From Candidatus Nanoarchaeia archaeon (GTDB lineage: Archaea > Nanobdellota > Nanobdellia > Woesearchaeales > SKIA01): DNA of 64,000 nucleotides. Every line of letters begins with the position of its first letter. The first letter of the stretch is position 1. Of the stretch, positions 30,747-47,354 are shown piece by piece. The position numbers and the translations under genes were made by a program. The notes under the pieces were generated by a model. It saw nothing but the letters and a program-made list of their open reading frames with translations, did not search any database and was not told the DNA's origin. The DNA is taken from positions 76,144 through 140,143 of the forward strand of contig JANQNG010000002.1 in assembly GCA_028279685.1 (NCBI GenBank), written 5' to 3'.

Positions 30747-30810
30747 TTAAAGAAAAGGGGGGAGTAAGATAGACATTTGCTTTTACTTTCAAGTCCATCA
30801 GCCTTGGCGG

Positions 30811-31992: not shown

Positions 31993-32030
31993 AGACATCC
32001 AAGTGTTTACTAAAAAAGAGAGGTGAATTG

Positions 32031-32411: not shown

Positions 32412-32441
32412 TTCATACTTAGTTAAAGAGGGGTGAAGTAT

Positions 32442-32966
32442 ATGCAATCAGTAGACGATCAACAAGCATTTAGATTCAATAATGGATTTTCTGCAAGAAA
32501 CATTACTGAACTAAAAAATTGTATAGAGGATTTGCCAATAGAAGATTTTGAGCATCATGTGAATAAAGAAGAGAACGATTTCTCGAAGTGGATTAAACTC
32601 TGTCTTCACGAACCTGTACTTGCAGATGAACTCTTAAGAACAAAATCGAAAGAGATTACCTTGCTTCTCTTGAAGGATTGGTTGCTGACTCATAAGGCCA
32701 AAAAGACACTTAATGAGCTGCATGAATCTCCATCAACAGGAGTAGAAATCAGCAATCTTGCCAAAAAACTTGAGAAAAAGCCGAAAGAAATGAAAATTGA
32801 GCTTCAGAAAAATACTACTGCTGATATTCCCAGGCCCAAATGTAAAAAACATAAGGACAAAGAACCTTCCATGAATACAGGATTGCTTGTAAAGGAATTT
32901 ATCTTCGGAATGATCATAGGACTTATCCTTGGTATTGTATTGATGAAGATTATTAGCTTATTCTAA
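32442..32966 (+). CDS. small protein with HHVN-NDF-WI domain and C-terminal TM helix (paralog B)
   Basis: FEHHVNKEENDFSKWIKLCLHEPVLADELL domain; C-terminal hydrophobic helix; RBS GAGGGGTGA before ATG 32442. Confidence 0.4.
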   Translation: MQSVDDQQAFRFNNGFSARNITELKNCIEDLPIEDFEHHVNKEENDFSKWIKLCLHEPVLADELLRTKSKEITLLLLKDWLLTHKAKKTLNELHESPSTGVEISNLAKKLEKKPKEMKIELQKNTTADIPRPKCKKHKDKEPSMNTGLLVKEFIFGMIIGLILGIVLMKIISLF

Positions 32967-32967
32967 G

Positions 32968-34725: not shown

Positions 34726-34890
34726 ACTCCTCCCCTAATGTTGGATATCCTTTGGAGAGGAGTTCGACCAGAGGAGTCTATATCTAACAGGCTAAAGCTG
34801 TAGTATTGACTCCTCTGTGTATAAACAGAGAAACCCAAAAGATAAACTTTTTATATACCTGCTGTTGAAATATTATGAAAGAGGATTAAT

Positions 34891-35205
34891 ATGAAGAATG
34901 CCGTTTTTTTGCTGATGATGGTGATTCTGGCTAGTTTTGTTGCTGGATCAATATACGATGAAGACAAGACATTTCAAAGCGTATCTCAGCATTCAGGTAA
35001 CCCCTCATTCAGCATTCTGATGATCTTGATTGCAATTACTGCATTGCTCTATATCTATGTACTCCTCAAATGTGGTCTGCGACAGGACCGAGTAAAGTTC
35101 AAGATTGTCATGGGAGATCCTCCAAAGAAACACGAGTTAAAAAAGAAGCTCAACTACAAGCGAATGAAAACATCTGCAAAAAAGAAAATCAAGAAAAAAA
35201 AATAA
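34891..35205 (+). CDS. hypothetical small membrane protein with Lys-rich tail
   Basis: Two hydrophobic helices; KKKIKKKK C-terminus. Confidence 0.3.
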   Translation: MKNAVFLLMMVILASFVAGSIYDEDKTFQSVSQHSGNPSFSILMILIAITALLYIYVLLKCGLRQDRVKFKIVMGDPPKKHELKKKLNYKRMKTSAKKKIKKKK

Positions 35206-35309
35206 GATTTCTAACCCAAACCTTTATAAATGTCTTCTCGCCCAATAGATCTAAGGGGTGACTTACTAACATTATACAAGAACTAGAGATACATCAATGA
35301 GGTGACTGA

Positions 35310-36053
35310 ATGAAAGCAATAATATTAGCAGCGGGCTATGCCACACGATTATATCCTTTGACATTGGATAACCCCAAACCATTGCTTCCTGTAGGAGGAA
35401 GCCCTTTGTTAGATTACACATTAGATAAATTAGAAGAACTTGATGGCTTGGATGAAATATATGTCATAACAAATGATAAGTTCTATCCTAAGTTCAAGAT
35501 GTGGGCCGCAAAGCAAGAAAGATCATTCAATATCAAAATCATTAATGACTGTACTAAAACCAATGAAGATCGATTAGGAGCTGTCGGAGATACCTACTAC
35601 GTGATCAAACAAGAGAACATAGATGATGATCTCCTTCTTATAGCCGGAGACAATCTTTTTGAGTTTAGCCTCAAAGCAATGTATGCTATGTTCAAAGAAA
35701 AAAAGAAAACCGTCTTTGCATTATGTGACTTAAAAGACCCTGCAAAATTATCAAAAAAATTCGGTGTTGTTGAGATCAACGAAAATAATAAAGTGATTGG
35801 TTTTGAGGAGAAGCCTGAACAACCAAAGACAACATACGCTTCAACGGCATGCTATATTTTTTCAAAAGATGATCTGAGCAAACTTAAAGAGCTTGCAGAA
35901 AATGCACCTGATAACTTAGGGGAAATCATCATATTCTTGTACCAGAAATCAGAGGTTTTTGGAATTCCCTTCAAAGAAACATGGATTGACATAGGAAGCC
36001 TTGAACAGTACAAAGAAGCAGATAAGCTTTTTGCGGAGAGGAATACATCCTAA
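35310..36053 (+). CDS. sugar-1-phosphate nucleotidyltransferase (NDP-glucose pyrophosphorylase-like)
   Basis: MKAIILAAGYATRLYPLTLDNPKPLLPVGG signature of NTP-transferase family. Confidence 0.75.
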   Translation: MKAIILAAGYATRLYPLTLDNPKPLLPVGGSPLLDYTLDKLEELDGLDEIYVITNDKFYPKFKMWAAKQERSFNIKIINDCTKTNEDRLGAVGDTYYVIKQENIDDDLLLIAGDNLFEFSLKAMYAMFKEKKKTVFALCDLKDPAKLSKKFGVVEINENNKVIGFEEKPEQPKTTYASTACYIFSKDDLSKLKELAENAPDNLGEIIIFLYQKSEVFGIPFKETWIDIGSLEQYKEADKLFAERNTS

Positions 36054-37915
36054 TGGAAGTAACACACACATTTCGAGGAGAGCGCATCAGTTTCGTAGGC
36101 GTTACTCCTTCTTTCATTCTTTCTAACAAAAAAGGAAACTATTGTGCATGGAGTGCTCAAGAAAACTTTTCAGCTTATTGTGGCCTTCATCAACTGATAC
36201 CCCAAGGCAAAGACTGGGATCTATTCAAAAGCATTGAGAACATTCAGTTAGTTGACACTAAAACAACAGAGCTCATCAATACCTTCTCTGGCTTTGTTAG
36301 GAAATCAGGTGACGCCACAGAGATTTTTCATCTATCAAAATTGAATTCTCTGTTTTATGACGTCGAGAATTTTCATGGTGAAATCGCACTTGAGCTAGAT
36401 TGCAGATATATCTATGACTTTTCTTCAGAAGGAAGAATTTATGAGATCATCCATGACGGGGACTATATTGTCATTCACTACCAGAAGTTCAAAGAAGATG
36501 GCCTTATTAATCTCGACTATGATTATTTCGTGATTATACGAGGGTTTCAAGATGTTGATATCAAAAAAGAATGGGTAAAAAAACACTATATGTATGATAA
36601 AAGAAGAGGCCAACAGGGAGATCGTTGGATTTTTGACGCATTGCGTTTTAAAGTGAAAGGAAATCTCAACCTCGTTATTGGGTTTGGGAAAACGTATACC
36701 AAAGCAAAGGAATATTGCGATTACGCATATATTAATAGAGAACAAATGTTAAGTAACACCAATAACTATTATAATAATCTACTCGGCAAACAGCAACTCA
36801 GTAATAAAGACAGGATTTTTGCTCTGCGCTGTGCAATGAAAGCACTAGACGACGTATGTATTGTCCGTGGTCAAGAATTTAATCTGCGAGGGATCTTTGC
36901 CGGATGGCCTTGGTTCTATCAAGTGTGGACAAGAGATGAAGCGATAAGTTTAGGAGGTCTCCTCACTACAGGAGATTATACTTTTGTGAAGGATGTCATT
37001 ATGCGTCAGATTATAAAGATCATAGAAGATGGAAGAATTCCTAATAGACATCCTCATGCAGGCTTAGGAAGTGCTGATGGTGTCGGTTGGGTATTCAAAC
37101 GTGCAGGAGATTTAATCGACACTCTGAAACGAGAGAATCTACTAGGAAGCATCTTGAGAGACGAACAACTAATAACCATCAAAAATCAATTAAAGAAAAG
37201 TATTGATGGATTGCTTAAGCACCACACAAGAAACGGATTTGCTGTCAATAGTATTAATGAAACTTGGATGGATACTACAGGAACACAAAATGATGTGCGT
37301 GACGGCGCGCGCATTGAAATTCAAGCATTACGATTATCAATGTACAAACTCATGGTTGAATTGTGTCGTATGACTAATGACAAAGAGATGAAAACCTATA
37401 AGAGCCTCTATAGAAGCCTTAAGAAGAATATTAAGACGTATTTTTTCAAAGAAGGGAAATTATATGATGGATTAAATGACCCTGCTGCAAGACCGAACAT
37501 ATTTCTAGCGTACTATATCTGCAAAGATTTCTTGAGTAATGAGGAATGGCATCAAGCATTTGATTACGCATTAGAACGATTATGGATCAGCTGGGGAGGA
37601 TTGAGTACACTCGACAAAGAACATCCTTGGTTCAAAGAATGGCATACAGGAGAGAATAACGACTCTTATCATCGTGGTGATTCCTGGTTTTTCGTAAATA
37701 ACATAGCTGCCTGGTGTCTTCATGATCTTGACGCAGAAAAATATAAGCAAACGGTGCTGAAAATACTACATGCTTCAATGGAAGATTGTCTTCGTCATGG
37801 TTTTGTAGGGCATTGTTCTGAAATTAGCTCTGCTGCAAAAATGGAAGCTTTTGGATGTTGGGCACAAGCTTGGAGCGCCTCTACTTTGGTAGAACTTTTG
37901 ATGAAAATTTCTTAA
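36053..37915 (+). CDS. glycogen debranching enzyme (amylo-alpha-1,6-glucosidase, GDE C-terminal domain family)
   Basis: GWPWFYQVWTRDEAISLGGLL and (alpha/alpha)6-barrel-like C-terminal region with conserved W/D/E pattern. Confidence 0.65.
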   Translation: MEVTHTFRGERISFVGVTPSFILSNKKGNYCAWSAQENFSAYCGLHQLIPQGKDWDLFKSIENIQLVDTKTTELINTFSGFVRKSGDATEIFHLSKLNSLFYDVENFHGEIALELDCRYIYDFSSEGRIYEIIHDGDYIVIHYQKFKEDGLINLDYDYFVIIRGFQDVDIKKEWVKKHYMYDKRRGQQGDRWIFDALRFKVKGNLNLVIGFGKTYTKAKEYCDYAYINREQMLSNTNNYYNNLLGKQQLSNKDRIFALRCAMKALDDVCIVRGQEFNLRGIFAGWPWFYQVWTRDEAISLGGLLTTGDYTFVKDVIMRQIIKIIEDGRIPNRHPHAGLGSADGVGWVFKRAGDLIDTLKRENLLGSILRDEQLITIKNQLKKSIDGLLKHHTRNGFAVNSINETWMDTTGTQNDVRDGARIEIQALRLSMYKLMVELCRMTNDKEMKTYKSLYRSLKKNIKTYFFKEGKLYDGLNDPAARPNIFLAYYICKDFLSNEEWHQAFDYALERLWISWGGLSTLDKEHPWFKEWHTGENNDSYHRGDSWFFVNNIAAWCLHDLDAEKYKQTVLKILHASMEDCLRHGFVGHCSEISSAAKMEAFGCWAQAWSASTLVELLMKIS

Positions 37916-38298
37916 CTTTCTCTGTTAACCATGATACAGCTATGATGAATACATTCAATATTATGCTGTTCACAGAATGCTATTGCTTTTTCTGATTCTG
38001 AACCTGGTTGCATCCAGACTCTCTTAATGTGCAATGCAGCACATTCCTCCACAATTCTTTCCGTGACTGAAGGAGGCACCACCATATCAACGAGATCTAT
38101 CTCTTTAACAGCATCAATTGCTTCTTTCAATGTTGAGAAACATCTCAATCCAAGAATTTCCTTTTCCTTGAGATTAATGGGAATCACCTTATAACCTGCT
38201 TCCTTCAATACATTGAGAATCTTATAGCCATATTTCTCTGGATTGGCAGTCGCACCGACAACGGCAACATATTTATCTTTGTTGACAAATCCCATCAT
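37912..38298 (-). CDS. CoA-binding domain protein
   Basis: VAVVGATANPEKYGYKILNVLKEAGYKVIPIN is a typical CoA-binding Rossmann-like domain. Confidence 0.6.
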   Translation of the reverse strand: MMGFVNKDKYVAVVGATANPEKYGYKILNVLKEAGYKVIPINLKEKEILGLRCFSTLKEAIDAVKEIDLVDMVVPPSVTERIVEECAALHIKRVWMQPGSESEKAIAFCEQHNIECIHHSCIMVNRES

Positions 38299-38304
38299 AC
38301 ACCT

Positions 38305-39261
38305 CTACTCAAAGAGACTTTCAGGAACATAACATTGTTTAAGCAGATTATCAGACTCAATAATCTTATAATCTGAGACACTAAAATGTCTCCTCAGATC
38401 ATTGATAACCCCTTTTGAAAGACTCTCTGTTTCAATCACCATAAGCAATTCATAATCACCTATTATCTTGACGAGTTCTACTATGTTTTTATGCTGTTTT
38501 GCATATTCCACGACTTTATTTATTTCATCGGAATCTTCATAGTCTAATCTCAACAAAAGGTATCTTCGAGAAATATCTGCATTAGGATAATTAAGAAGAA
38601 TGCTGTATTTTCGGATAACTCTTTTAGATTCAAGCTGCTTCTTTATACTCACCACTGTTTTTGAGTCGAGATTTAGGTTTCTTGCAATATTGATCACAGG
38701 TTCCTTAGCATTCTGGTGTAACAATTGCAGAACTGCCTTCTGACGATTATTCAAAGGCATCACATCCCTATCTCCTGAAAGAATGATTTGAGAATCATTT
38801 GTAGATTTGGCCATATATTTCCTCTCGTAAAGATGTTTCACAATAACCACTTGGATATCTGCTATTCTGAGCATGGATCTATAATCATGAAGCAGCTCTC
38901 TATGCTGCTTATTGAACAACGAAAGATTAGGCACTGAAAATTCTACCATGAGATCCGCACCATGAGAAACTTCCTCGACGGTAACAATGTGCGGATGACT
39001 CATCAGATGAGCCTTCAATTTAGCTAATGCTCTGCTCTCAAAATTCTGATAATGATAGAGCACAACAATGTTAATGAGCCCGAACCGTGCAGGATCAATA
39101 ACAGTTTGGTAGTTTTGGAGTATTTTTTTCTGAAAAAGATTCTGGACGAGATAACTCGCTGATTGCTGACTTACCCTCAAGAGTTTCCCCAACTCTTTAG
39201 TGGTTATCCTCGAGTTTCTCGAGAGAAAGTAGAGAACTTTACCTAATTTCTTAACACCCAT
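38305..39261 (-). CDS. tandem Lrp/AsnC-family transcriptional regulator (two HTH+RAM modules)
   Basis: Two repeats of an HTH (RITTKELGKLLRVSQQSASYLVQNL / VINIARNLNLDSKTVVSIKKQL) each followed by a RAM-like domain; start set to internal ATG 39261. Confidence 0.55.
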   Translation of the reverse strand: MGVKKLGKVLYFLSRNSRITTKELGKLLRVSQQSASYLVQNLFQKKILQNYQTVIDPARFGLINIVVLYHYQNFESRALAKLKAHLMSHPHIVTVEEVSHGADLMVEFSVPNLSLFNKQHRELLHDYRSMLRIADIQVVIVKHLYERKYMAKSTNDSQIILSGDRDVMPLNNRQKAVLQLLHQNAKEPVINIARNLNLDSKTVVSIKKQLESKRVIRKYSILLNYPNADISRRYLLLRLDYEDSDEINKVVEYAKQHKNIVELVKIIGDYELLMVIETESLSKGVINDLRRHFSVSDYKIIESDNLLKQCYVPESLFE

Positions 39262-39355
39262 CTTTGTAGGAAATACATCAGTTATATATAAAACTTCTGA
39301 AAATACTGAAAAGCACTGAGATAGCTTTAAATCTAAAGCGTTTGCTTTTAGCAAT

Positions 39356-40621
39356 ATGGGTGAAATTAAGAACGAAGTGAAAGTTGAAGACACGCTGACA
39401 ATTGTGATGGTTCTCTACGCAAGACCCCATGTTGGAGGAAGTGGCATCTCTGGAACACAAATGGCTATTGAGCTGGCAAAAAGAGGTCATGATGTTCATA
39501 TTGTAAGTTATCCAAACACCTACTTAACAGAAGAAGAGAAAAAATATCTAACCATTCATCCTATTCCTAACATCAACTACAGCAGTTTCAAGGCAATGCC
39601 TATTGAGATGGCCTTTGCAGGAGTGATCTACAACATAGCGAAAACAAAAGGAATCGATATTCTTCAAGCACATTATAATGTCACCCATGCAGGTGCTATA
39701 ATAGATGCAAGAGACAGCATTATCCTTGGTATGAAAAATGGAGAACTCCCAAAACAAGAAAGAAGACCTGTAGCTATTATCACCAATAGAGGCACAGATA
39801 TTAGTATCCACGCATTTAATCCTCTTCTCTCACCAAGCATGCAACTGAGACTCAGTCAGGCAGATGAATTTACTTTTGTTTCTCACGCACTCCAAGATCT
39901 TGCAAAAAAAGCATTCAATCTTCCTCATTACGGAAAAGTCATTCACAACTTTGTTGATGAAGGTCGATTTAGTAACCATGTTGAAGAACGAAAGCTCCTA
40001 AGAAAAAAACTTAACATCAACGAAGACACTGTTGTGTTCTATCATGTTTCAAACTTTAGGCCAGTTAAAAATATTCCTGTTATTGTAGAAGCTTATTTTC
40101 GAGCAAAAATCAGCAACAACATAACCAATACAAAATTGCTCTTTATAGGAGATGGGGAAATGAGAACAAAAATTGAAGAAATGGTCAAAAGTTATCAACT
40201 TCAAGAAGATGTGATCTTTTTAGGGAGTGTAGCTCCAGAAGAAATGGACGCATACACTGCAGTAGGAGATGTACTCATTCTTCCATCGCTAAGTGAAGGT
40301 CTTGCCAGAGTAAGTTTAGAAGCACTTCATGCAAGAAAAGGAATCATTGCATCTAATAAAGGAGGAAATCCAGAGGTTGTTGAGCCAGGAATTAATGGTT
40401 TTTTGATTGAGCCTCATGACGTTGAAAAATTATCTAAATATATTGTAGAATTTGTAAACAATCCTAGTCTTCCTAGAAAAATGGGAACACTCGGGCGAAA
40501 CATTGCAGAAACAAAATTCAATAGAACACATATTATTGATCAATACGAAAATCTCTACTATGAAACATTAAAAAAGACTAACGCAATCCCTCTTGAAGTT
40601 ATAGAATCGGAGGAAAATTAA
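39356..40621 (+). CDS. GT4-family glycosyltransferase (BshA/MshA-like retaining GlcNAc transferase)
   Basis: N-terminal GGSGISGTQMAIELAKRGHDVHIV; C-terminal E..G....EA.A.G.P motif (SLSEGLARVSLEALHARKGIIASNKGGNPEV). Confidence 0.7.
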   Translation: MGEIKNEVKVEDTLTIVMVLYARPHVGGSGISGTQMAIELAKRGHDVHIVSYPNTYLTEEEKKYLTIHPIPNINYSSFKAMPIEMAFAGVIYNIAKTKGIDILQAHYNVTHAGAIIDARDSIILGMKNGELPKQERRPVAIITNRGTDISIHAFNPLLSPSMQLRLSQADEFTFVSHALQDLAKKAFNLPHYGKVIHNFVDEGRFSNHVEERKLLRKKLNINEDTVVFYHVSNFRPVKNIPVIVEAYFRAKISNNITNTKLLFIGDGEMRTKIEEMVKSYQLQEDVIFLGSVAPEEMDAYTAVGDVLILPSLSEGLARVSLEALHARKGIIASNKGGNPEVVEPGINGFLIEPHDVEKLSKYIVEFVNNPSLPRKMGTLGRNIAETKFNRTHIIDQYENLYYETLKKTNAIPLEVIESEEN

Positions 40622-40623
40622 AC

Positions 40624-41298
40624 ATGGCTAATATTCTTGCAATTATCGCACATCCTGACGATGAAATGAATTGTGCAGGGCTTATGACAAAGAATTCTAA
40701 AGAAGGCGGAGAGAATTTTATTGTTTGTTTTGTCGATAATGAAGGACGAAAAGAAGAACTAAAAAAAAGTTGTAAGATTCTTAATGCAGAATTCACAACA
40801 TTAGGTTTTAACCAATTGGAAATTACACCTTCTCATGCTCTACGAAAAAAACTAAAAAATCTCATTGTTTCTTTCAAACCAGATATCGTTGTTATTCAAT
40901 CCAAAGATTATCATCCTGATCACCAGATTATTCATGATTTCGCACTCCATGTAATGGAATTTGCAAGCCATGGAGATGAAAATACAGCATGGCTCACTCC
41001 AGTCATATTAGAACTTGAAGCTTCCGCATTAATCGATTACCCTGATGTTATATATGATATCACCAACGAACAAGAAGCAAGAAAGGAAGTTATGAAAGTC
41101 CATCAATCACAGGTGAAACGAAAAAGCTTTGGTAAATATTATTTGGACATAGTAGAACAGAAAGCACGACTACGAGGGGCGCAAATAGGTACAGAATATG
41201 GAGAAGCATATCGTTTACACCACTTATCTATTAAAGGAAACTTTTACCCTACTTCAAGAGGATATAGAAATGTAGGAGATATTTTTTCTCGAAAATGA
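40624..41298 (+). CDS. PIG-L/LmbE-family N-acetylglucosaminyl deacetylase
   Basis: ILAIIAHPDDEMNCAG, HPDH..IH motifs of the LmbE zinc deacetylases. Confidence 0.75.
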   Translation: MANILAIIAHPDDEMNCAGLMTKNSKEGGENFIVCFVDNEGRKEELKKSCKILNAEFTTLGFNQLEITPSHALRKKLKNLIVSFKPDIVVIQSKDYHPDHQIIHDFALHVMEFASHGDENTAWLTPVILELEASALIDYPDVIYDITNEQEARKEVMKVHQSQVKRKSFGKYYLDIVEQKARLRGAQIGTEYGEAYRLHHLSIKGNFYPTSRGYRNVGDIFSRK

Positions 41299-42428
41299 CC
41301 GCAAAAGCAGTAGTTGTAGGATTATATGGAGCAAATCCACTAGGTATTGTGAGGAGCCTTGGTATAGAAGAAATTCCTGTTATAGGTGTACATTATGAGA
41401 ACAAATATCCTCACGCAAAATATTCAAAGTATCTAGAAAATCATCATATTGTTGAAGGAGAAGAAGCCGCGATCCAAAAACTTGTAGATATAGGTAAAAC
41501 ATTTGATGAAAAATCTGTTTTATTCGCGACAGGAGATACTCGAGTACTCTTGTTAGAAGATAATAAAGAGATACTTTCAGAATTTTATCATGTTCCTCTA
41601 GTTTCCAAAAGAAATATCAGAGATATTATTGATAAACATGCTGTTCTCTCTGTTGGAAAAGAAGCAGGATTTCTTGTTCCTCGCTCTACATATCTTTCTG
41701 ATTTGCTCAATAACTCTACTGAAATTTCATTCCCCATACTTCTTAAACCTTTGAACAGCACCATAGGCACTAAAGATGATATGGTTTTAGTTCAAACTAA
41801 AGATGAACTTAATAAAAAAATAAAAACATTAAACAAAGATGTTTCTAAAATAATTGCAGAAGAATATATCAAAGGACCTATAACTAATCATTTCGAAGTT
41901 CACACATATTTATCATCAGAAGGCCCTCTTATAGGAGGTATGTTACAACGACTCAAAGAATACCATGTTGGAAAAGATGCAAAAGAAGGCTTTATGAACA
42001 AATCGACATGGATTGATGCATTAGTTCATCCTAGTTTGAAATTAACAGAAAGCCTTAAGTTCAATGGAGCCATAGATATTAATCTTATAAGAGACGAAGA
42101 TAGTGGTCAATTCTATTTTATAGAAGCAAATTTAAGAACTAGTTCGAACCTTATTCTCGACACTATGGCAGGATTAAACCTACCAGCAATTATTTATCAT
42201 GATCTCACAGGAAACAATTTCTCAAAATATGTGCATACTGATTATAGAAAAGATGTTTTCTGGATGTATGATCATCGTATACTCTCAGAACTTGAGCACG
42301 GAAATATCACACTCGAAGAAATAGCACCATATTTTATGCAAGATCATGTTTGCGCATTCTATGATAAAAATGACTCGATTCCTTATATCGAATCTCTAAG
42401 AAAGGGAAAACTTCTGCCAAAAAGGTAA
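41295..42428 (+). CDS. ATP-grasp superfamily ligase (carboxylate-amine ligase-like)
   Basis: FPILLKP...IIAEEYIKG...FYFIEANLR pattern of the ATP-grasp fold; translationally coupled to the deacetylase. Confidence 0.5.
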   Translation: MTAKAVVVGLYGANPLGIVRSLGIEEIPVIGVHYENKYPHAKYSKYLENHHIVEGEEAAIQKLVDIGKTFDEKSVLFATGDTRVLLLEDNKEILSEFYHVPLVSKRNIRDIIDKHAVLSVGKEAGFLVPRSTYLSDLLNNSTEISFPILLKPLNSTIGTKDDMVLVQTKDELNKKIKTLNKDVSKIIAEEYIKGPITNHFEVHTYLSSEGPLIGGMLQRLKEYHVGKDAKEGFMNKSTWIDALVHPSLKLTESLKFNGAIDINLIRDEDSGQFYFIEANLRTSSNLILDTMAGLNLPAIIYHDLTGNNFSKYVHTDYRKDVFWMYDHRILSELEHGNITLEEIAPYFMQDHVCAFYDKNDSIPYIESLRKGKLLPKR

Positions 42429-42606
42429 ATAATATTTAAATGCCTTTGTTTCGATTTGCATTATCATGAAACCATAGCTGATTATAAAAGAGAGGCTGTC
42501 GAATATATCCTGAATACTACTCCTTCATTCCACAAAAGTCTCCTGAAAATCATCCAAAATCTATAAAAAGGGCTAATTCTTTAAAAGCACAAAGAGGGTT
42601 TAGTGG

Positions 42607-44670
42607 ATGAAGAACCATATCATGTGGATAGTTGTAGTGATAGTTCTTGCAGGTTTTGTTCTAGCTGATGACACCAAAATAGATGACATTTACATCGCTT
42701 ATACAGGCAATTTCACCCTTGAAGGCCATACATTCGGAGTTACAACACAGAATGAAGACGCTGTACTGATGAACCGTAATGGCCAGAATACAATCTATTG
42801 GAAAGATCGCTGTACTTTCCTCAGTTTCCATAAATTCTGCCTGGAAGCCGCATCAACAACAAGCGCACGATTCGCCATCTATTCTTTAATACCTACTGTG
42901 GAATTGGATATGAGCACAAACACTACAACACTCATTGAAGGAGATGATCTCCTTGTAAAAGCAGAGATTGAAAACTCAGGAGAACAACAAACACAATTCT
43001 TTCTCGAGATCAGATATCCAGAAACCTTCCTTTTTGTTGATGGGCCTAATACCCTAGAGTACCCTGAACCTGCTATGTACTGGGAAAACTTCCAAGGTCC
43101 TCCTCTTCAAGAACAAGTGCTCTATTATGACTCTTATCTCCAACCTAATACAATAGAGTACTTCAACTTTACGATCAAAGCAATTCATAATATCACAAAA
43201 GCATCAATTAACATATCATTAATCTTCTTCAACAGTACAGATAACGAATCAATAGATACAGAAAATATTAAGGTCAATGTTAATGGTTTGCTTGATTTCA
43301 GCCTAAAACCTCCTCGGTTGAGAAAAGGTGATGAGGGTCTTGTCGACATTAAAATCAAAAATGAGAAAACACATAATGTTACTCTTGCTAAGATGGCGTT
43401 GGTTCTCCCTAATCATATCTATTGGGGAGATATAAGCTTCAAAAAACTCGGAGCATCGAATCAGTATGTCAATCCAGGATTATCGCAATATGACAATGCA
43501 CTCCTTTATATTAAAACACTGACTCCTCAACAGGAAATCAACTTCAGCATACCTGTCAGCTCAGACCGAAAAGGAATCTACGATCTTATCGTAATAAGAA
43601 AAATGTATAGTACTGATAGCAATCAATCTTTTGTCAGTATTGAAAAAGCACCCGTTGAAGTTATAGATCACACTATCACCACAGAGACGAGCACCTCGAA
43701 AAAACTTATCTATATAGATGATACCACAACGTTTACAACTACAATAAGAAATGATGATCATGTGACTTTTGAACATGTGAATGTCAGTGTCATTTCGGAT
43801 TTGTTTTGGTTTGAGAACGAAACTTCTTTGTTTCCAGGAGAAGAGAAAACGTTTTCCTTTGATTTTTCTCCTGAGAAATATGAGGAGAAAAAACCTTACG
43901 AAGTTACATTTAAGATTCATTACAAGCTGCAAGATGATCCTGCTTATTATCTGAAAGAATCCAAAGAAACCATAACACTTATCCAAGGCAATAGGCCAAA
44001 ACATATCACTCAAGAAAACAACACCATGGAACCTGTCAGTTTCCTTACAGATATTGAAACAACCTTTGAACTTCCTCCAGAGCAGCGATTATTTGTCGAA
44101 GACAAAACTCCTTCTACTATCATGAAAGGAGATTCCCTTAGAGTCGAAATAGCACTCGAGAAGAAAGGCTTCATAGGAGACATCAATATCACTATCACAC
44201 TGAATGATGAAACAGTGATTGACACCATAGATTATGATTTCAATAACACGAAATACGTAAGAAGATTTGATGTTCCTGAGGAGAATGAAGTACGACTCTC
44301 TTATGTGGTGTCTTATGTTGAGAACGGGACTCCTGTAGAGGTAAGTAATCAAAAAGTGGTTGTTATTGAAGAGCCATTGCAAGAAGTCATTATTGAAGAG
44401 CCTGTTAACGTCTGGTGGTTCATCTATCCATTGCTTGTGCTGATTATTATTATTGCGTTTCTCGTCGCTATTCCGAAAAAGAAAGCGATTGAGAGACGAT
44501 ATCATCAACTGAAAACATCACTTGATGATGATAAGAAAGATCTCCTTGAACTAAAGAAAGTAATAACTGATCCTCAACAAGTTTCTGTTATTAGAAGCAT
44601 TGAGCGAGACCTTACTATCCAAGAGAAAAAACTTGAGAAACTCAAGCGAAAGCTCAAAAAGACGAAATAG
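42607..44670 (+). CDS. large cell-surface protein (N-terminal signal/TM, many N-glycosylation sequons, C-terminal TM anchor plus coiled coil)
   Basis: MKNHIMWIVVVIVLAGFVLA signal; >25 N-x-S/T sequons; C-terminal WWFIYPLLVLIIIIAFLVAIP helix. Confidence 0.5.
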   Translation: MKNHIMWIVVVIVLAGFVLADDTKIDDIYIAYTGNFTLEGHTFGVTTQNEDAVLMNRNGQNTIYWKDRCTFLSFHKFCLEAASTTSARFAIYSLIPTVELDMSTNTTTLIEGDDLLVKAEIENSGEQQTQFFLEIRYPETFLFVDGPNTLEYPEPAMYWENFQGPPLQEQVLYYDSYLQPNTIEYFNFTIKAIHNITKASINISLIFFNSTDNESIDTENIKVNVNGLLDFSLKPPRLRKGDEGLVDIKIKNEKTHNVTLAKMALVLPNHIYWGDISFKKLGASNQYVNPGLSQYDNALLYIKTLTPQQEINFSIPVSSDRKGIYDLIVIRKMYSTDSNQSFVSIEKAPVEVIDHTITTETSTSKKLIYIDDTTTFTTTIRNDDHVTFEHVNVSVISDLFWFENETSLFPGEEKTFSFDFSPEKYEEKKPYEVTFKIHYKLQDDPAYYLKESKETITLIQGNRPKHITQENNTMEPVSFLTDIETTFELPPEQRLFVEDKTPSTIMKGDSLRVEIALEKKGFIGDINITITLNDETVIDTIDYDFNNTKYVRRFDVPEENEVRLSYVVSYVENGTPVEVSNQKVVVIEEPLQEVIIEEPVNVWWFIYPLLVLIIIIAFLVAIPKKKAIERRYHQLKTSLDDDKKDLLELKKVITDPQQVSVIRSIERDLTIQEKKLEKLKRKLKKTK

Positions 44671-44740
44671 GACTATTTGCTGAGAGTTACATAACAATTA
44701 TATATGATCGTTTCGTTTGAAAGAAGAGAAGAGGTGTATC

Positions 44741-45259
44741 ATGGGTTTTTTAGACAAATTGAATCCATTCAAGAAGAAAGATGATCTTTTTGGAGACTTC
44801 GACAGCCATCCCGATAAACTGAATGATCCTCTCGGAGGGCCGCAAACTCCAGATGATATACATAAAGATTCTTCATTTCACGATCCTCTAGGAGCATCTG
44901 ATCCTTTTGGAGCGCCTCCTGGAGGCGATTTACCTCCTGCAGGAATGCCCCCTCCCGATTCATCATTCCCTTCTGCGCAGCCAGCAGAATTAAGTTCTAA
45001 AATGGGAGGAAGTCCTTTCTCTGACCAGCCATTCAGCTCTCCTGCTGCTCCGCAGGAATTACCAAAGGGAGAGCCTGCCGCAGATAATGAAAAACACACG
45101 TTACTCATGGAGAAATCTAATATGAGCCTTGAATTGGTGTCTGCTAAGCTCGATAGTATCAAAGCAGCCATTGACAGCATAAATGTACGACTAAGAAATC
45201 TTGAGAAGATGGCTTCTGACAGCCAGAATCCTCCCGAACCCAAAGATAAATGGTGGTAA
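44741..45259 (+). CDS. Pro-rich disordered protein with N-terminal amphipathic helix and C-terminal coiled coil
   Basis: MGFLDKLNPFKKK N-terminus; long P/G/D-rich linker; coiled coil at the end; RBS GAGGTG before ATG 44741. Confidence 0.4.
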   Translation: MGFLDKLNPFKKKDDLFGDFDSHPDKLNDPLGGPQTPDDIHKDSSFHDPLGASDPFGAPPGGDLPPAGMPPPDSSFPSAQPAELSSKMGGSPFSDQPFSSPAAPQELPKGEPAADNEKHTLLMEKSNMSLELVSAKLDSIKAAIDSINVRLRNLEKMASDSQNPPEPKDKWW

Positions 45260-45347: not shown

Positions 45348-47354
45348 ATGGTTTTATACCAATGGGAGGAATTTATCAAAAAGCATAAGCCGAAGAAGAA
45401 GCTATCCTCTTTTCACCCAGGATTAGGTTATAACGTTATTTCTCGCAGAAAAGGGAAAGCGAATAAAATACAATTCACGGTGCTAGCAGATCATAAAGCA
45501 ATTGATATTTATCTTGTAGGGAATTTCAACAATTGGGGAAAAACAAATAACAAATTTGATGAACGCAAATTAACAAAATGGAAACTCCAGCCAGATTTTC
45601 ATGGAGTATATCATACTATTACCGTTTCTGGATTAAAGCATAAGGAAAAGTATAAGTTTCTTGTAAAAAATGGATCTGAATGGGATTACCGTCGAGATCC
45701 AGCAGGAACCTATTTCGATGAAGAAGGCAATAGCATTATATGGGATTATGATGATCCTTCTGCATACAAGCAAAAACATAAATTGATCGACACCATTAAC
45801 AGGCCTACAAAAATAATACAAACTGATCTTCCTGGGCTGATTAGCCATTGGCGTCATAAAAAAACTGGAAAATTAGGAAGAGATATTCCTGAAAAAGAAA
45901 CCTACAAATTCTTTGCCACATCAGGCATTATTGAACACGTTAAACAATTAGGATTTAACACTATACAATTCTTGCCATTTCATCAGAGTATTGATGGTGA
46001 TAACTGGAAATTTAGATATTTGGTTTTGTATCAATATGCAATTCAAAATAAATGGGGGAACCCTGATGACTTTGCAAGAATGATTGATGCATGCCATAAG
46101 CAAGATATTGCCGTCATAGGTGATTTTGTCGTAAGTCATGCTCCTTGTCAGCATTTCAAGATTTTTGGAGAATCAGGAGCTGCTACAGGAATACATAAAT
46201 GGAGATCAAAGCACGGCAAAGATGTCTTTCTTGCTGATTGGACTCCTTGGGGAACAAAACGATTTGATTACGATAATCATCACGTTCGGAAATTCTTAGT
46301 TGAGGGCTGTCTTCATTTCATGAAACGATATAATATTGATGGTTTCAGAATTGATAATGTCGACGGCATTATCAGATATGGTGACGCTGGCGAAGGTCCT
46401 GAACGCCCTAACGGAAGAACATTTCTCAGAGAAATGACGAAAGTTTTGTACGAATATAATCCTTATGCATTGGCACATTTTGAATCACATTATTTCTATG
46501 GTGACAATGCAAAAATGCTTGTCGTTCCTCTTGAGAGTGATCCAAGAGCTTTGGGCGCAACAGCATACAACAGTTCTCGTGTTAGTTATTACCTTCATAA
46601 AGAATTAATGCCAAAATCAGCCGAACATATCACACCATTTAGATTTGAAGATATCAGATCTGAGAAAGAATGGGGGCAGTGCAATTCTACCGTCGGAGAT
46701 TTCCATAATCATGATGCTGCCGCAGGACTGATGCACGGTCGTGCAACTGGAAGTTATGCTTATGATGCATTGATACTTAAAAGATCTGATATTCATTTCC
46801 ACGCTGTCGGGAAAATAAAAATTATGGAAGCACTGATTAGTTTTGGTCTGGAGGGAAGAACACTTGATTTGATACAATCATTCTTATTGCAGACAGGAAC
46901 ATTTGAGCACGATAGTTCTGTACATTGGTTCTTGGAGATGAGAGATGCTACAAAAGGAATGCTGAAGTATAAACAAGATGTGAATAAGCTTATGGATGAT
47001 CCTGCTTTCTGGCCGATGAATACGAAGAACAGGAAATATATCAATGTCGATGATGTGAATAAAATGCTTGCTATTGTTCGCAAAGATACTGAACAAGAAA
47101 CCAAATCTGAATATTTAGTAAATATTAATTTCAGTTCAAGACATCTGCATAATTATGCTGTCGGCGTAGAAGACCATGCTGAATATGAAGTAGTATTAAA
47201 CGGAGATTTGTATAAGTATGCTGGCCAAGGTATGGTAGCCTATCCTAATACAATCAAGACAGAGAAATCAGATAAGTTTGAACTATTCGACAAACAGATC
47301 ACTCTCAATGATGTAGCACCGTATGGTGTTGTGGTGTTGAAGAAGGTAAAATGA
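45348..47354 (+). CDS. GH13-family alpha-glucan enzyme with N-terminal CBM48/E-set-like domain (branching-enzyme/amylase-like)
   Basis: GH13 regions GDFVVSHA (region I-like) and DGFRIDNVDGI (region II-like); N-terminal beta-sandwich-like segment. Confidence 0.55.
   Translation: MVLYQWEEFIKKHKPKKKLSSFHPGLGYNVISRRKGKANKIQFTVLADHKAIDIYLVGNFNNWGKTNNKFDERKLTKWKLQPDFHGVYHTITVSGLKHKEKYKFLVKNGSEWDYRRDPAGTYFDEEGNSIIWDYDDPSAYKQKHKLIDTINRPTKIIQTDLPGLISHWRHKKTGKLGRDIPEKETYKFFATSGIIEHVKQLGFNTIQFLPFHQSIDGDNWKFRYLVLYQYAIQNKWGNPDDFARMIDACHKQDIAVIGDFVVSHAPCQHFKIFGESGAATGIHKWRSKHGKDVFLADWTPWGTKRFDYDNHHVRKFLVEGCLHFMKRYNIDGFRIDNVDGIIRYGDAGEGPERPNGRTFLREMTKVLYEYNPYALAHFESHYFYGDNAKMLVVPLESDPRALGATAYNSSRVSYYLHKELMPKSAEHITPFRFEDIRSEKEWGQCNSTVGDFHNHDAAAGLMHGRATGSYAYDALILKRSDIHFHAVGKIKIMEALISFGLEGRTLDLIQSFLLQTGTFEHDSSVHWFLEMRDATKGMLKYKQDVNKLMDDPAFWPMNTKNRKYINVDDVNKMLAIVRKDTEQETKSEYLVNINFSSRHLHNYAVGVEDHAEYEVVLNGDLYKYAGQGMVAYPNTIKTEKSDKFELFDKQITLNDVAPYGVVVLKKVK

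What the first reader, a model, noticed from the sequence alone, without database searches (positions are those of the whole stretch)
38305..42428. GT4 glycosyltransferase / LmbE deacetylase / ATP-grasp ligase operon resembling low-molecular-weight-thiol (bacillithiol/mycothiol-type) biosynthesis, with divergent tandem-Lrp regulator
Three translationally coupled genes (gaps of 2 nt and a 4-nt overlap) encode a retaining GT4 GlcNAc-transferase-like enzyme, a PIG-L/LmbE zinc deacetylase (AHPDDE) and an ATP-grasp carboxylate-amine ligase. This chemistry (glycosylate an acceptor, deacetylate GlcNAc to GlcN, ligate an amino acid to the free amine) matches BshA-BshB-BshC and MshA-MshB-MshC logic, but an ATP-grasp enzyme replaces the usual ligases. 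It is a candidate pathway for a novel GlcN-amino-acid conjugate or LMW thiol in an archaeon, under control of a divergently transcribed tandem Lrp/AsnC regulator.
Basis: inference. Interest (0 to 1): 0.6.

Follow-up and report, generated by a model that had tools for sequence, protein, structure and literature searches.

The report
Archaeal glucosamine-conjugate operon with ATP-grasp ligase
A small uncultured archaeon carries a conserved, separately regulated three-gene operon that most likely attaches an amino sugar to a small organic acid, removes its acetyl group and adds a new acyl or amino-acid group, which is the logic used to make the bacterial antioxidant bacillithiol but with an unrelated last enzyme and an unknown product.

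Summary
Window 38305-42428 holds a divergent tandem Lrp/AsnC regulator and three translationally coupled genes (2-nt gap, ATGA overlap). They encode a BshA-like GT4 glycosyltransferase, a PIG-L/LmbE deacetylase with an intact metal site, and an ATP-grasp ligase with intact ATP/Mg residues.

ATP-grasp, PIG-L and a glycosyltransferase are adjacent in 12 of 13 independent DPANN (Woesearchaeota/Nanoarchaeota) loci at 37-45% ATP-grasp identity; the 13th contig is too short to show a glycosyltransferase. The regulator is adjacent in six loci.

The glycosyltransferase is the variable part. It is BshA-like in most loci (some pass NCBI's BshA cutoff; the window scores 261.8 against 273.7). In two loci it is a glucosyl/mannosyl-3-phosphoglycerate-synthase-like enzyme. 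Both types glycosylate small hydroxy acids, and no AglB, flippase or polymerase gene lies nearby. This favours a soluble N-acyl(aminoacyl)-glucosaminyl hydroxy-acid product.

Nothing shows that the added group is cysteine, so the thiol reading is open (about 0.2). The deacetylase is not a BshB orthologue. The ATP-grasp is a poorly characterised COG3919-type family whose other members are often fused to exopolysaccharide glycosyltransferases.

Verdict: a real, undescribed variant of bacillithiol/mycothiol-type logic. Interest is moderate to high.

The parts
38305..39261 (-). Tandem Lrp/AsnC-type regulator, 318 aa: two HTH plus ligand-binding (RAM) modules fused. The mechanical ORF runs on to a GTG at 39393, but the conserved start is the Met at 39261.
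   Evidence: Pfam HTH_24, MarR and AsnC_trans_reg. NCBIfam Lrp models match in two stretches. A profile of 6 orthologues matches full-length Lrp/AsnC structures with each half. Orthologues of 316-326 aa lie beside the cassette in L005, L014, L016, L017 and L018, with an invariant SQQSASY motif; they are divergent from the glycosyltransferase gene in each.
39262..39355 (.). 94-bp AT-rich divergent promoter region. It holds a TATA-like TTATATATAA at 39282-39291 and a perfect 6-bp inverted repeat GCTTTA-AATC-TAAAGC at 39324-39339, 17-32 nt upstream of the GT4 ATG.
   Evidence: Sequence read directly and inverted-repeat scan. The related palindrome ATATTTAAATAT in the other loci is a generic TATA-like element, not an operon-specific operator. 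ATATTTAAAT also occurs at four other sites in the window, in or beside gaps between the listed ORFs.
39356..40621 (+). Retaining GT4 glycosyltransferase of the BshA clade, 421 aa (an alternative start is Met18). It probably transfers a HexNAc from a UDP-sugar to a small hydroxy acid.
   Evidence: TIGR03999 BshA 261.8 bits (cutoff 273.7). The top 5 PDB hits are all BshA. Residues matching SaBshA T120, N171, K209, E280 and E288 are kept; H118 is Arg145 and ESFG is EGLA. It belongs to a DPANN clade at 42-52% identity, followed by Bacillaceae BshA at 30-33%.
40624..41298 (+). PIG-L/LmbE-family metal-dependent N-deacetylase, 224 aa.
   Evidence: PF02585 61.9 bits. In 16 cassette homologues, H10, D12, D13, E14 and H100 are invariant and H97 is nearly so (AHPDDE and HPDH motifs). 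BshB1 model 65 bits, below the 182.5 cutoff. PDB hits are weak: Pyrococcus deacetylase 1e-7, BshB1 1.7e-5.
41295..42428 (+). ATP-grasp carboxylate-amine ligase, 377 aa, of a poorly characterised COG3919-type family. It is the signature gene of the cassette.
   Evidence: AF2 pLDDT 82.4. Foldseek top hits are biotin carboxylases, PylC and an L-amino-acid ligase, TM about 0.6. K151, E277, N279 and R281 are invariant in 24 homologues, and E201 in at least 90%. Only marginal sequence hits in the PDB. Seven close orthologues were found by word search and 412 relatives at E<1e-30 by exhaustive search.
37912..38298 (-). CoA_binding_2 protein, 128 aa, starting 6 nt after the regulator's stop and probably co-transcribed with it. 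It is not conserved with the cassette elsewhere, so membership is doubtful.
   Evidence: PF13380 127.9 bits. Sequence at the junction. The genes downstream of the regulator differ in other loci: DoxX in L005, a 52-aa ORF then SelR in L014.

Best explanation
The operon is a three-step cytoplasmic pathway for a soluble amino-sugar conjugate.

Step 1 (inferred from family). The BshA-like GT4 transfers GlcNAc, or in this window's subgroup possibly another HexNAc, from a UDP-sugar to the hydroxyl of a small hydroxy acid such as L-malate, glycerate or 3-phosphoglycerate.

Step 2 (inferred from family and intact active site). The PIG-L enzyme removes the N-acetyl group and exposes the C2 amine.

Step 3 (inferred from fold, intact catalytic residues and invariant gene linkage). 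The ATP-grasp enzyme activates a carboxylate, most plausibly an amino acid, as an acyl phosphate. It then couples the carboxylate to that amine, giving an N-acyl/aminoacyl-glucosaminyl hydroxy acid.

The divergent tandem Lrp/AsnC protein controls the operon, probably in response to a small-molecule effector such as an amino acid.

This is the bacillithiol/mycothiol construction logic with an unrelated ligase in the last step. The identity of the added acid, and so whether the product is a thiol, a compatible solute or something else, is not determined.
For: 1. Linkage. ATP-grasp, PIG-L and a glycosyltransferase are adjacent in 12 of 13 orthologous loci with readable flanks. These are the window, L001, L004, L005, L007, L009, L014, L016, L017, L018, L020/L028 and L022. 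The 13th, L021, is a 1.6-kb contig showing only ATP-grasp and PIG-L. Gene order varies (L016, L017, L021), so selection is on co-occurrence rather than inherited order.

2. Small-molecule acceptors. The GT is BshA-like in most loci (TIGR03999: 288, 291 and 302 bits in L001, L005 and L016; 261.8 in the window). In L004 and L017 it is replaced by a GT81 enzyme. That enzyme matches Rubrobacter mannosyl-3-phosphoglycerate synthase at 1.5e-32 and mycobacterial GpgS at about 1e-29, and scores 186 and 182 bits on NCBIfam GpgS. Both enzyme types glycosylate small alpha-hydroxy acids.

3. All enzymes look active. PIG-L keeps its metal and catalytic motifs. The ATP-grasp keeps its ATP/Mg residues. The GT4 keeps K209, E280, E288, N171 and T120 equivalents.

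4. No surface-glycan machinery. No membrane GT, flippase, Wzy or AglB gene lies beside any DPANN cassette.

5. Amidase-like duplication. A second PIG-L paralogue is present in L014, L020/L028 and L022. This parallels the deacetylase-plus-amidase pairs BshB1/BshB2 and MshB/Mca (PMC5790435).

6. Ligase-like fold. The best structural matches among ligases are amino-acid ligases (PylC 4ffl/4ffr; L-amino-acid ligase 3vot).

7. Dedicated regulation. An orthologous regulator is conserved next to the cassette in 6 loci.
Against: - The acceptor, the donor and the ligated acid are all inferred.
- The window's GT4 falls just below the BshA cutoff. It has Arg for His118 and EGLA for ESFG in the sugar pocket, so its donor or catalysis may differ.
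- PIG-L is not closer to BshB than to chitobiose deacetylases.
- Close relatives of the ATP-grasp are fused to exopolysaccharide-type GT4/GT2 domains (P0019, 313 bits to the profile).
- A 24%-identical bacterial homologue sits in a Wzy/GT4 polysaccharide cluster.
- L016 adds a TuaG-like GT2, which implies a disaccharide.
- Two BshA-like GT4 clade members (L026, L027) lack adjacent PIG-L and ATP-grasp genes.
- The ATP-grasp could use a non-amino-acid carboxylate. Formate or bicarbonate is conceivable, since biotin carboxylases are its top structural hits.
Confidence: 0.55

Rival explanations
1. The product is a bacillithiol-like low-molecular-weight thiol (Cys-GlcN-malate or Cys-GlcN-glycerate). 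The ATP-grasp acts as the cysteine ligase in place of BshC or MshC and provides a redox buffer for these archaea.
For: - The GT4 is BshA-like, and orthologues pass the BshA cutoff.
- ATP-grasp ligases already make thiols (glutathione synthetase; GshB-like ATP-grasp proteins noted in PMC7278568).
- BshC's own reaction has never been reconstituted (PMC5790435), so a different ligase is plausible.
- Duplicated PIG-L genes resemble the deacetylase/S-conjugate-amidase pairs.
- Redox genes appear sporadically nearby. MsrB lies beside the regulator in L014 and MsrAB about 0.7 kb from it (two small genes between) in L026. A nitroreductase lies directly downstream in L022/L019. DoxX lies beside the regulator and a glutaredoxin about 3 kb downstream in L005.
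Against: - Nothing identifies cysteine as the substrate.
- No BshC, bacilliredoxin (DUF1094), YpdA-type reductase or DinB/YfiT transferase appeared in the ORFs scanned in the window or the annotated genes of the loci.
- The redox neighbours differ from locus to locus, and their number is only slightly above what chance would give in about 1-Mb genomes.
- The GpgS-like variants and the proximity to glycogen or mannosylglycerate genes (window, L024, L015) point equally to a compatible-solute role.
- The window's CysRS is an ordinary CysS, not MshC.
Confidence: 0.2
2. The cassette builds or decorates a cell-surface glycoconjugate (S-layer or pilin glycan, exopolysaccharide or glycolipid head group). 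It would produce N-aminoacyl-hexosamine residues, and the GT would act on a glycan or lipid acceptor rather than a free hydroxy acid.
For: - The ATP-grasp's wider family is repeatedly fused to exopolysaccharide-type GT4/GT2 domains. Examples are P0019 (GT4-ATPgrasp-ATPgrasp-GT4), P0126 (GT2-GT4-ATPgrasp-GT4), P0149 and P0103.
- The bacterial homologue in L013 ends a Wzy/GT4/methyltransferase cluster.
- L016 carries an extra TuaG-like GT2.
- There is a precedent for GT-fused ATP-grasp amidation of a capsule sugar (Cj1438, PMC11800379).
- In L009 the GT is an unclassified GT1-domain protein and an LD-carboxypeptidase follows.
Against: - None of the 13 DPANN cassettes lies next to a flippase, polymerase, oligosaccharyltransferase or polyprenol-phosphate GT gene.
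- The GTs that can be classified belong to soluble small-acceptor families, BshA and GpgS/MpgS.
- A dedicated Lrp-type regulator fits inducible metabolism better than constitutive envelope synthesis.
- The fused relatives carry TIGR03088-type GT4 domains, not BshA-type, and lack PIG-L.
Confidence: 0.2
3. The genes are a catabolic or salvage set for GlcNAc-containing material, such as chitooligosaccharide deacetylation. The GT and ATP-grasp would then be functionally unrelated neighbours.
For: The best PDB sequence matches of the PIG-L protein are the Pyrococcus/Thermococcus diacetylchitobiose deacetylases (1.3e-7). The window's cassette is embedded in a glycogen and sugar-metabolism island.
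Against: - Translational coupling.
- ATP-grasp/PIG-L/GT linkage holds across 12 loci whose other neighbours are unrelated.
- No glycoside hydrolase, sugar kinase or transporter travels with the cassette.
- The PIG-L match to the chitobiose deacetylases is weak (about 30 bits) and comparable to its match to BshB1.
Confidence: 0.05

Closest known systems
Bacillithiol biosynthesis (BshA, BshB1/B2, BshC) of Firmicutes, Deinococcus-Thermus and others
   Same: - The first enzyme belongs to the BshA clade. All five best PDB hits are BshA, and orthologues pass TIGR03999.
- The second enzyme is a PIG-L/LmbE zinc deacetylase.
- The overall order is glycosylate a hydroxy acid, deacetylate, then acylate the amine.
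- Some loci have two PIG-L paralogues, as with BshB1/BshB2.
   Different: - The third enzyme is an ATP-grasp ligase unrelated to BshC.
- The deacetylase is not a BshB orthologue (65 bits against a 182.5 cutoff).
- In two loci the GT is a GpgS/MpgS-like GT81 enzyme.
- The window's GT4 has His118 replaced by Arg and ESFG replaced by EGLA.
- No bacilliredoxin or YpdA partner was seen.
- The cassette is clustered as one operon with a dedicated Lrp regulator, whereas in Bacillus bshC lies apart from bshA-bshB1.
- The product is unknown.
Mycothiol biosynthesis (MshA, MshA2, MshB, MshC, MshD) of Actinobacteria
   Same: A GT4 GlcNAc transferase, then a PIG-L deacetylase, then ATP-dependent ligation of an amino acid to the GlcN amine.
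   Different: MshA scores only 54.5 bits against a 462.5 cutoff. MshC is a CysRS paralogue, not an ATP-grasp. The only CysRS-like gene found in the window is a genuine CysS. No inositol-phosphate genes or MshD are present.
Glucosylglycerate/mannosylglycerate compatible-solute pathways (GpgS or MpgS plus a phosphatase)
   Same: In L004 and L017 the cassette's GT is a GpgS/MpgS-family enzyme (E about 1e-30 to solved structures). Mannosylglycerate-type genes lie near the ATP-grasp in L015. The window and L024 place the family beside glycogen genes, a known carbon source for such solutes.
   Different: Those pathways use Glc or Man donors and stop at the glycoside. Here a deacetylase and an amide ligase follow, which implies a HexNAc donor and an N-acylated amino-sugar product. 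No dedicated phosphatase is in the cassette.
COG3919-type ATP-grasp carboligases (labelled 'D-aspartate ligase' in JGI annotations) and amino-acid ligases PylC and L-amino-acid ligase BL00235
   Same: Three-domain ATP-grasp fold (TM about 0.6) with conserved Lys, Glu, Asn and Arg catalytic residues. Expected chemistry is an acyl-phosphate intermediate attacked by an amine.
   Different: Sequence similarity to any solved or characterised ligase is marginal (best PDB E = 3.8e-4). All curated NCBIfam models score far below cutoff. The proposed nucleophile is an amino sugar rather than an amino acid or peptidoglycan precursor.
Cj1438-type GT-fused ATP-grasp amidoligase of the Campylobacter jejuni capsule
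   Same: An ATP-grasp enzyme that forms an amide bond on a sugar and is physically tied to glycosyltransferases. Distant relatives of the window's ATP-grasp are likewise fused to GT4/GT2 domains.
   Different: Cj1438C is a TupA-like ATP-grasp that activates the sugar's own C6 carboxylate within a polymer. The window enzyme did not match a TupA-type model in the Pfam scan, is a stand-alone protein, and is always paired with a deacetylase that creates an amine.

Membership tests
[quoted passage not shown] | Score at or above the curated equivalog cutoff (273.7 bits) | tested here: not met
   The window protein scores 261.8 bits, just below the cutoff. Cassette orthologues in L001 (288.1), L005 (291.5) and L016 (301.7) pass. 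L007 (150.6) and L014 (152.4) do not, and the L009 GT has no hit.
[quoted passage not shown] | Closest solved relatives are BshA, over the full length including the acceptor (N-terminal) domain | tested here: met
   3mbo, 2jjm, 5d00, 6d9t and 6n1x match at E 6e-49 to 2e-40 over residues about 20-407. The next GT4 is at 3e-15 and matches the C-terminal half only.
[quoted passage not shown] | Functional residues reported for S. aureus BshA: H118, T120, N171, K209, E280-S-F-G283, E288 (PMC10361700) | tested here: inconclusive
   T147, N198, K238, E314 and E322 are conserved. H118 is Arg145 and ESFG is EGLA in the window. Most clade members keep His and ESFG.
[quoted passage not shown] | L-malate as acceptor and UDP-GlcNAc as donor | not testable with these tools
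   The papers listing the malate-contact residues were not held. An enzyme assay is needed.
BshB (bacillithiol deacetylase, TIGR04001/TIGR04000) | Score at or above the curated cutoff (182.5 / 195.25 bits) | tested here: not met
   65.0 and 49.6 bits. PDB BshB1 6p2t matches at 1.7e-5, weaker than Pyrococcus diacetylchitobiose deacetylase at 1.3e-7.
PIG-L/LmbE deacetylase superfamily (PF02585) | Pfam gathering score, plus the AHPDD and HxDH metal and catalytic motifs | tested here: met
   61.9 bits against 28.2. H10, D12, D13 and H100 are invariant and H97 nearly invariant in 16 cassette homologues.
BshC (bacillithiol cysteine-adding enzyme) | The third pathway enzyme is a BshC homologue | tested here: not met
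   The third gene is an ATP-grasp protein. None of the ORFs scanned against Pfam or NCBIfam matched a BshC model. Presence elsewhere in the genome could not be tested.
ATP-grasp superfamily | Three-domain ATP-grasp fold with the conserved ATP-binding Lys and the Mg-binding Glu/Asn and Arg | tested here: met
   AF2 pLDDT 82.4, pTM 0.85. Foldseek E about 1e-16 to biotin carboxylases, PylC and an L-amino-acid ligase. K151, E277, N279 and R281 are invariant in 24 sequences. PF02786 scores 25.0 against 19.8.
Any characterised ATP-grasp ligase family (Ddl, PurT/PurK, GshB, PylC, cyanophycin synthetase, pseudomurein ligase, PRK12767) | Score at or above the curated cutoff of the family model | tested here: not met
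   The best is PRK12767.1-1 at 52 bits against 218; all others are lower. ATPgrasp_Ter scores 25.9 against 29.1.
Lrp/AsnC transcription regulators (tandem fusion) | An HTH plus RAM (AsnC_trans_reg) module, present twice | tested here: met
   The profile of 6 orthologues matches full-length Lrp/AsnC structures with residues 8-135 and, separately, 162-316. Pfam finds HTH_24 at 52-86, MarR at 214-263 and AsnC_trans_reg at 287-326 of the 362-aa ORF. The single-sequence AF2 model was too poor to use (pLDDT 40).
Mycothiol pathway (MshA/MshC) | MshA and MshC equivalog scores | tested here: not met
   MshA 54.5 bits against 462.5. The window's CysRS-like gene scores 481 on CysS (cutoff 340) and 194 on MshC (cutoff 485).

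The most novel reading that the evidence does not exclude
Woesearchaeota-type DPANN archaea make a glycoside thiol of the bacillithiol class (cysteinyl-glucosaminyl-malate or -glycerate). They would use a stand-alone ATP-grasp cysteine ligase instead of BshC or MshC. This would be the first defined glycoside-thiol pathway in archaea and a biochemically tractable alternative to the still unreconstituted BshC step.
Probability: 0.2. Interest if true: 0.8.

Novelty: new variant of a known kind. Interest (0 to 1): 0.55.

Why it matters
- Bacillithiol and mycothiol are the only known amino-sugar thiol pathways. BshC's reaction has never been reconstituted (PMC5790435), and no such compound has been detected in archaea (PMC7278568).
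- A compact three-gene cassette under its own regulator, with an ordinary ATP-grasp ligase as the last enzyme, can be tested directly by heterologous expression.
- Whatever acid it adds, the cassette would define a new family of soluble N-acyl-glucosaminyl hydroxy acids (thiol, osmolyte or other) in DPANN archaea, whose metabolism is largely unknown.
- It would also assign a first function to a branch of the large, uncharacterised COG3919-type ATP-grasp family.
- NCBI already names some of the GT4 orthologues 'BshA' in Woesearchaeota. This finding shows that the name may imply a pathway, ending in BshC, that these organisms may not have.

Tried and rejected
- Papers giving the BshA malate-contact residues (PMC2943542, PMC5954418, PMC6511738) are not held. 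Acceptor specificity could not be checked residue by residue. Only GlcNAc-side residues were available, from PMC10361700.
- Comparing columns conserved in bacterial BshA with the archaeal clade was uninformative, because all retrieved bacterial BshA were Bacillaceae.
- A broad 24-sequence ATP-grasp alignment was too divergent for the metagenome scan; the 7-sequence alignment was used instead.
The single-sequence model was unusable (pLDDT 40).
- The palindrome ATATTTAAATAT in the divergent intergenic regions of L005, L014, L016 and L017 looked like a shared operator. Its core ATATTTAAAT also lies after the operon and at three other sites in the window. It is therefore better read as a generic archaeal TATA-like element.
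- The CysRS gene 18 kb downstream was checked as a possible MshC and rejected.
- Literature searches for this gene triad found nothing.
- Genome-wide presence or absence of BshC, bacilliredoxins and YpdA could not be tested.

Full report
**Observation**

They are a 362-aa ORF on the minus strand (38305-39393) and, on the plus strand, ORFs of 421 aa (39356-40621), 224 aa (40624-41298) and 377 aa (41295-42428).

- The junctions were read from the sequence. TAA-AC-ATG gives a 2-nt gap, with GGAGG 10 nt upstream. ATGA gives a 4-nt overlap.
- Pfam calls the plus-strand genes a GT4 glycosyltransferase (PF00534, 125 bits), a PIG-L deacetylase (PF02585, 61.9 bits, cutoff 28.2) and a weak ATP-grasp (CPSase_L_D2, 25.0 bits, cutoff 19.8).
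- The AHPDDE motif is at residues 9-14 of the deacetylase.
- The regulator's conserved start is the Met at 39261. This gives 318 aa, the size range of its orthologues (316-326 aa). The apparent overlap with the GT4 ORF disappears, and a 94-bp AT-rich divergent promoter region remains.
- Both halves of the regulator match full-length Lrp/AsnC structures: residues 162-287 to FL11 at 1.5e-12, and residues 8-135 to PH0061 at 1.3e-8. 'Tandem Lrp' is therefore correct.

**Organism and surroundings**

- The window encodes archaeal/eukaryotic ribosomal protein L31e.
- The closest homologues of the cassette proteins come from Candidatus Woesearchaeota and 'Nanoarchaeota' MAGs.
- In this genome the cassette lies inside a glycogen island. 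The island holds a GT5/GT4 starch-synthase-like gene, a GH57, a eukaryote-type GT3 glycogen synthase, an NDP-sugar pyrophosphorylase, an amylo-1,6-glucosidase and a GH13 branching enzyme.
- A CoA-binding-domain gene follows the regulator after 6 nt.
- Apart from the regulator, none of these neighbours travels with the cassette in other genomes.

**Is the gene set a unit?**

Starting from the ATP-grasp protein, I recovered orthologues at 37-45% identity and read their contigs. All 13 independent loci with readable flanks have a PIG-L gene next to the ATP-grasp. Twelve also have a glycosyltransferase adjacent.

| Locus | Arrangement |
|---|---|
| window, L005, L018 | regulator / GT4 - PIG-L - ATP-grasp |
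| L001, L007 | GT4 - PIG-L - ATP-grasp |
| L004 | GT2 - PIG-L - ATP-grasp |
| L009 | GT - PIG-L - ATP-grasp - LD-carboxypeptidase |
| L014 | regulator / GT4 - PIG-L - PIG-L - ATP-grasp |
| L022 | GT4 - PIG-L - PIG-L - ATP-grasp |
| L016 | regulator / GT4 - GT2 - ATP-grasp - PIG-L - PurC-like |
| L017 | PIG-L and GT2 divergent from regulator - ATP-grasp |
| L020/L028 | GT4 - PIG-L - ATP-grasp, with a convergent second PIG-L |
| L021 | ATP-grasp - PIG-L (short contig) |

- Order and orientation vary while co-occurrence holds. This is the signature of a functional unit.
- The regulator is orthologous across six loci at 25-45% identity, with an invariant SQQSASY helix.

**The three enzymes**

GT4:
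- Its five best solved relatives are all BshA (B. anthracis, B. subtilis, S. aureus) at E 6e-49 to 2e-40 over the full length. The next GT4 is at 3e-15.
- On NCBI's BshA equivalog model it scores 261.8 bits against a cutoff of 273.7.
- Cassette orthologues in L001, L005 and L016 pass that cutoff (288-302 bits). NCBI already names some of them BshA.
- The GT4s of L007 and L014 are more distant (about 150 bits). The L009 GT is unclassifiable.
- I used the functional residues reported for S. aureus BshA (PMC10361700). The window protein keeps the T120, N171, K209, E280 and E288 equivalents, but it has Arg for H118 and EGLA for ESFG.
- Its two nearest relatives have Arg and (E/N)DACP in those places. 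Most clade members keep His and ESFG.
- The window's subgroup may therefore use a different HexNAc donor.

PIG-L:
- H10, D12, D13, E14 and H100 are invariant, and H97 nearly so, in 16 cassette homologues.
- It is not a BshB orthologue: 65 bits against 182.5.
- Its PDB hits are weak and slightly favour Pyrococcus diacetylchitobiose deacetylase (1.3e-7) over BshB1 (1.7e-5).

ATP-grasp:
- It has only marginal sequence similarity to any solved structure (best 3.8e-4).
- It folds confidently (pLDDT 82.4, pTM 0.85) into the three-domain ATP-grasp architecture.
- The best structural matches are biotin carboxylases, PylC and an L-amino-acid ligase, with TM about 0.6.
- K151, E277, N279 and R281 are invariant.

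**What the variable glycosyltransferase says**

- In L004 and L017 the GT4 is replaced by a GT81 enzyme.
- That enzyme matches Rubrobacter mannosyl-3-phosphoglycerate synthase (1.5e-32) and mycobacterial glucosyl-3-phosphoglycerate synthases (about 1e-29). It scores 186 and 182 bits on the NCBIfam GpgS model.
- BshA (acceptor L-malate) and GpgS/MpgS (acceptor 3-phosphoglycerate) are both soluble enzymes that glycosylate small alpha-hydroxy acids.
- Two unrelated folds with the same kind of acceptor fill the same slot in the cassette. This is the strongest argument here that the product is a soluble glycoside of a small organic acid, not a lipid-, protein- or polymer-bound glycan.
- In agreement, no flippase, Wzy polymerase, AglB or polyprenol-phosphate GT gene lies beside any DPANN cassette.

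**What the wider ATP-grasp family says**

- An exhaustive profile search found 8083 relatives (412 at E<1e-30).
- Many are fusions: GT4-ATPgrasp-ATPgrasp-GT4, GT2-GT4-ATPgrasp-GT4, ATPgrasp-GT4, ATPgrasp-GNAT, and two or three ATP-grasp modules in tandem.
- The fused GT4 domains are exopolysaccharide-type (TIGR03088, 314-340 bits), not BshA-type.
- A 24%-identical bacterial homologue ends a Wzy/GT4/methyltransferase cluster.
- JGI labels some relatives 'D-aspartate ligase' or 'predicted ATP-grasp carboligase'.
- The family as a whole therefore appears to act on sugars or glycoconjugates, in the manner of the GT-fused amidoligase Cj1438 (PMC11800379).
- This supports a sugar-borne nucleophile here. 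It also keeps a surface-glycan role alive as a rival.

**Mechanism proposed**

1. GT: UDP-HexNAc plus hydroxy acid gives HexNAc-O-acid.
2. PIG-L: removal of acetate gives a free C2 amine.
3. ATP-grasp: a carboxylate is activated by ATP to an acyl phosphate, which the amine attacks to form an amide.

Steps 1 and 2 rest on family membership and intact active sites. Step 3 rests on the fold, the intact catalytic residues and the invariant pairing with the amine-generating deacetylase. The acyl donor is unknown. The tandem Lrp regulator probably senses a small molecule, as Lrp/AsnC proteins commonly bind amino acids (established knowledge).

**Thiol or not?**

For the thiol reading:
- The GT4 is BshA-like.
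- ATP-grasp enzymes already make thiols (glutathione synthetase).
- PIG-L is duplicated in three loci, like BshB1/BshB2 and MshB/Mca.
- Redox genes lie nearby in some loci. MsrB or MsrAB lies near the regulator in L014 and L026. A nitroreductase follows the ATP-grasp in L022. DoxX and a glutaredoxin are near L005.

Against the thiol reading:
- Those neighbours differ between loci and are barely more frequent than chance.
- No BshC, bacilliredoxin, YpdA or DinB-type gene appeared in the ORFs scanned or the annotated genes of the loci.
- The GpgS-like variants fit a compatible-solute role equally well. So do the mannosylglycerate-type genes near L015, and the glycogen genes beside the window's cassette and beside a 33%-identical paralogue in L024.
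- From the GT4 side, two of three sampled clade members (L026, L027) have no adjacent PIG-L or ATP-grasp. The BshA-like enzyme therefore also works in other contexts.

I put the thiol reading at about 0.2.

**Comparison with what is known, and novelty**

- The cassette works like the bacillithiol and mycothiol pathways, but it is not a member of either.
- BshA membership is borderline for the window protein. BshB membership fails. The BshC step is carried out by an unrelated fold.
- Literature searches for this triad returned nothing. The archaeal thiol review reports only BshA and BshC homologues, mostly in Asgard archaea, and no detected bacillithiol (PMC7278568).
- I classify it as a new variant of a known kind.

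**Verdict**

This is a real, conserved and previously undescribed DPANN operon for an N-acylated glucosaminyl hydroxy-acid. The thiol identity is unproven. Interest is 0.55.

Noticed in passing
window 29448-37915 and 45348-47354: A large alpha-glucan island surrounds the cassette. It holds a GT5/GT4 starch-synthase-like gene, a GH57, two DUF5752 genes, a eukaryote-type GT3 glycogen synthase (PF05693, 507 bits), an NDP-sugar pyrophosphorylase, an amylo-1,6-glucosidase (GDE_C) and a GH13 branching enzyme. This is notable for a small DPANN genome.
   Followed up: partly
L024 1-5016: A 33%-identical paralogue of the ATP-grasp sits between a GT3 glycogen synthase and an NTP-transferase/GDE_C pair. 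This is the position that, in the window (34726-35309), holds only a small Lys-rich ORF. It is a second link between this ATP-grasp family and the glycogen cluster, and it is unexplained.
   Followed up: partly
window 39788-39790 (Arg145) and 40295-40309 (EGLAR) of the GT4 gene: The window's BshA-like GT4 and its two closest relatives (P0176, P0177) replace the sugar-contacting His118 with Arg and the ESFG motif with EGLA or (E/N)DACP. Most of the clade keeps the BshA residues. A Gly-to-Pro change at this motif is linked to Gal versus Glc donor choice in another GT4 (PMC10361700).
   Followed up: partly
P0016, P0019, P0126, P0149, P0103, P0058 (no loci): Relatives of the ATP-grasp occur as giant fusions. 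These include three ATP-grasp modules in tandem (about 1300 aa), GT4-ATPgrasp-ATPgrasp-GT4 (1589 aa), GT2-GT4-ATPgrasp-GT4 (1506 aa) and ATP-grasp fused to a FemAB-like GNAT. They look like uncharacterised glycan-building and amino-acid-decorating enzymes.
   Followed up: partly
L014 5509-7312; L026 1079-3873: A methionine sulfoxide reductase gene lies near the tandem Lrp regulator in two different Woesearchaeota genomes: SelR in L014, and a SelR-PMSR fusion in L026 with two small genes between. In L026 the regulator is 3 kb from a BshA-like GT4 that lacks PIG-L and ATP-grasp partners.
   Followed up: no
window 50060-50605; L005 6075-6860: Bacterial-type lipoprotein machinery occurs in these archaea. 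The window has a signal peptidase II (Peptidase_A8, 110.7 bits), and L005 has a prolipoprotein diacylglyceryl transferase (LGT).
   Followed up: no
window 14470-14580: Rfam finds a tRNA spanning 111 nt (45 bits) that ARAGORN does not report. It is probably an intron-containing archaeal tRNA.
   Followed up: no
window 42607-45259: Two genes directly downstream of the operon have no Pfam or NCBIfam match. One is a 687-aa protein with hydrophobic stretches near both ends and a Lys-rich tail. The other is a 180-aa Pro-rich protein with a coiled-coil-like tail. They are possibly envelope proteins.
   Followed up: no
window 42432-42441, 29287-29298, 2407-2417, 51366-51375; L005 2055-2070, L014 7335-7344, L016 1209-1220, L017 2162-2173: The palindrome ATATTTAAAT(AT) recurs in or beside gaps between ORFs: 5 matches in the window against about 1 expected, and none of 100 shuffles reached 5. 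It reads as an archaeal TATA box on both strands and may serve divergent promoters.
   Followed up: partly
L018 5143-6316: The BshA-like GT4 of this cassette is split into two overlapping ORFs (249 aa and 162 aa). This is a frameshift, through either gene decay or an assembly error.
   Followed up: no
L004 79-3210 and 12592-16569: The SRP54 and RadA genes of this DPANN contig carry inteins (Intein_splicing plus LAGLIDADG). RadA has at least two.
   Followed up: no
L016 5217-6488; L009 3895-4839: Two cassettes carry accessory genes. L016 ends with a 423-aa PurC (SAICAR synthetase)-like protein, potentially a second ATP-dependent amide ligase. L009 ends with an S66 LD-carboxypeptidase/MccF-like amidase.
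   Followed up: partly
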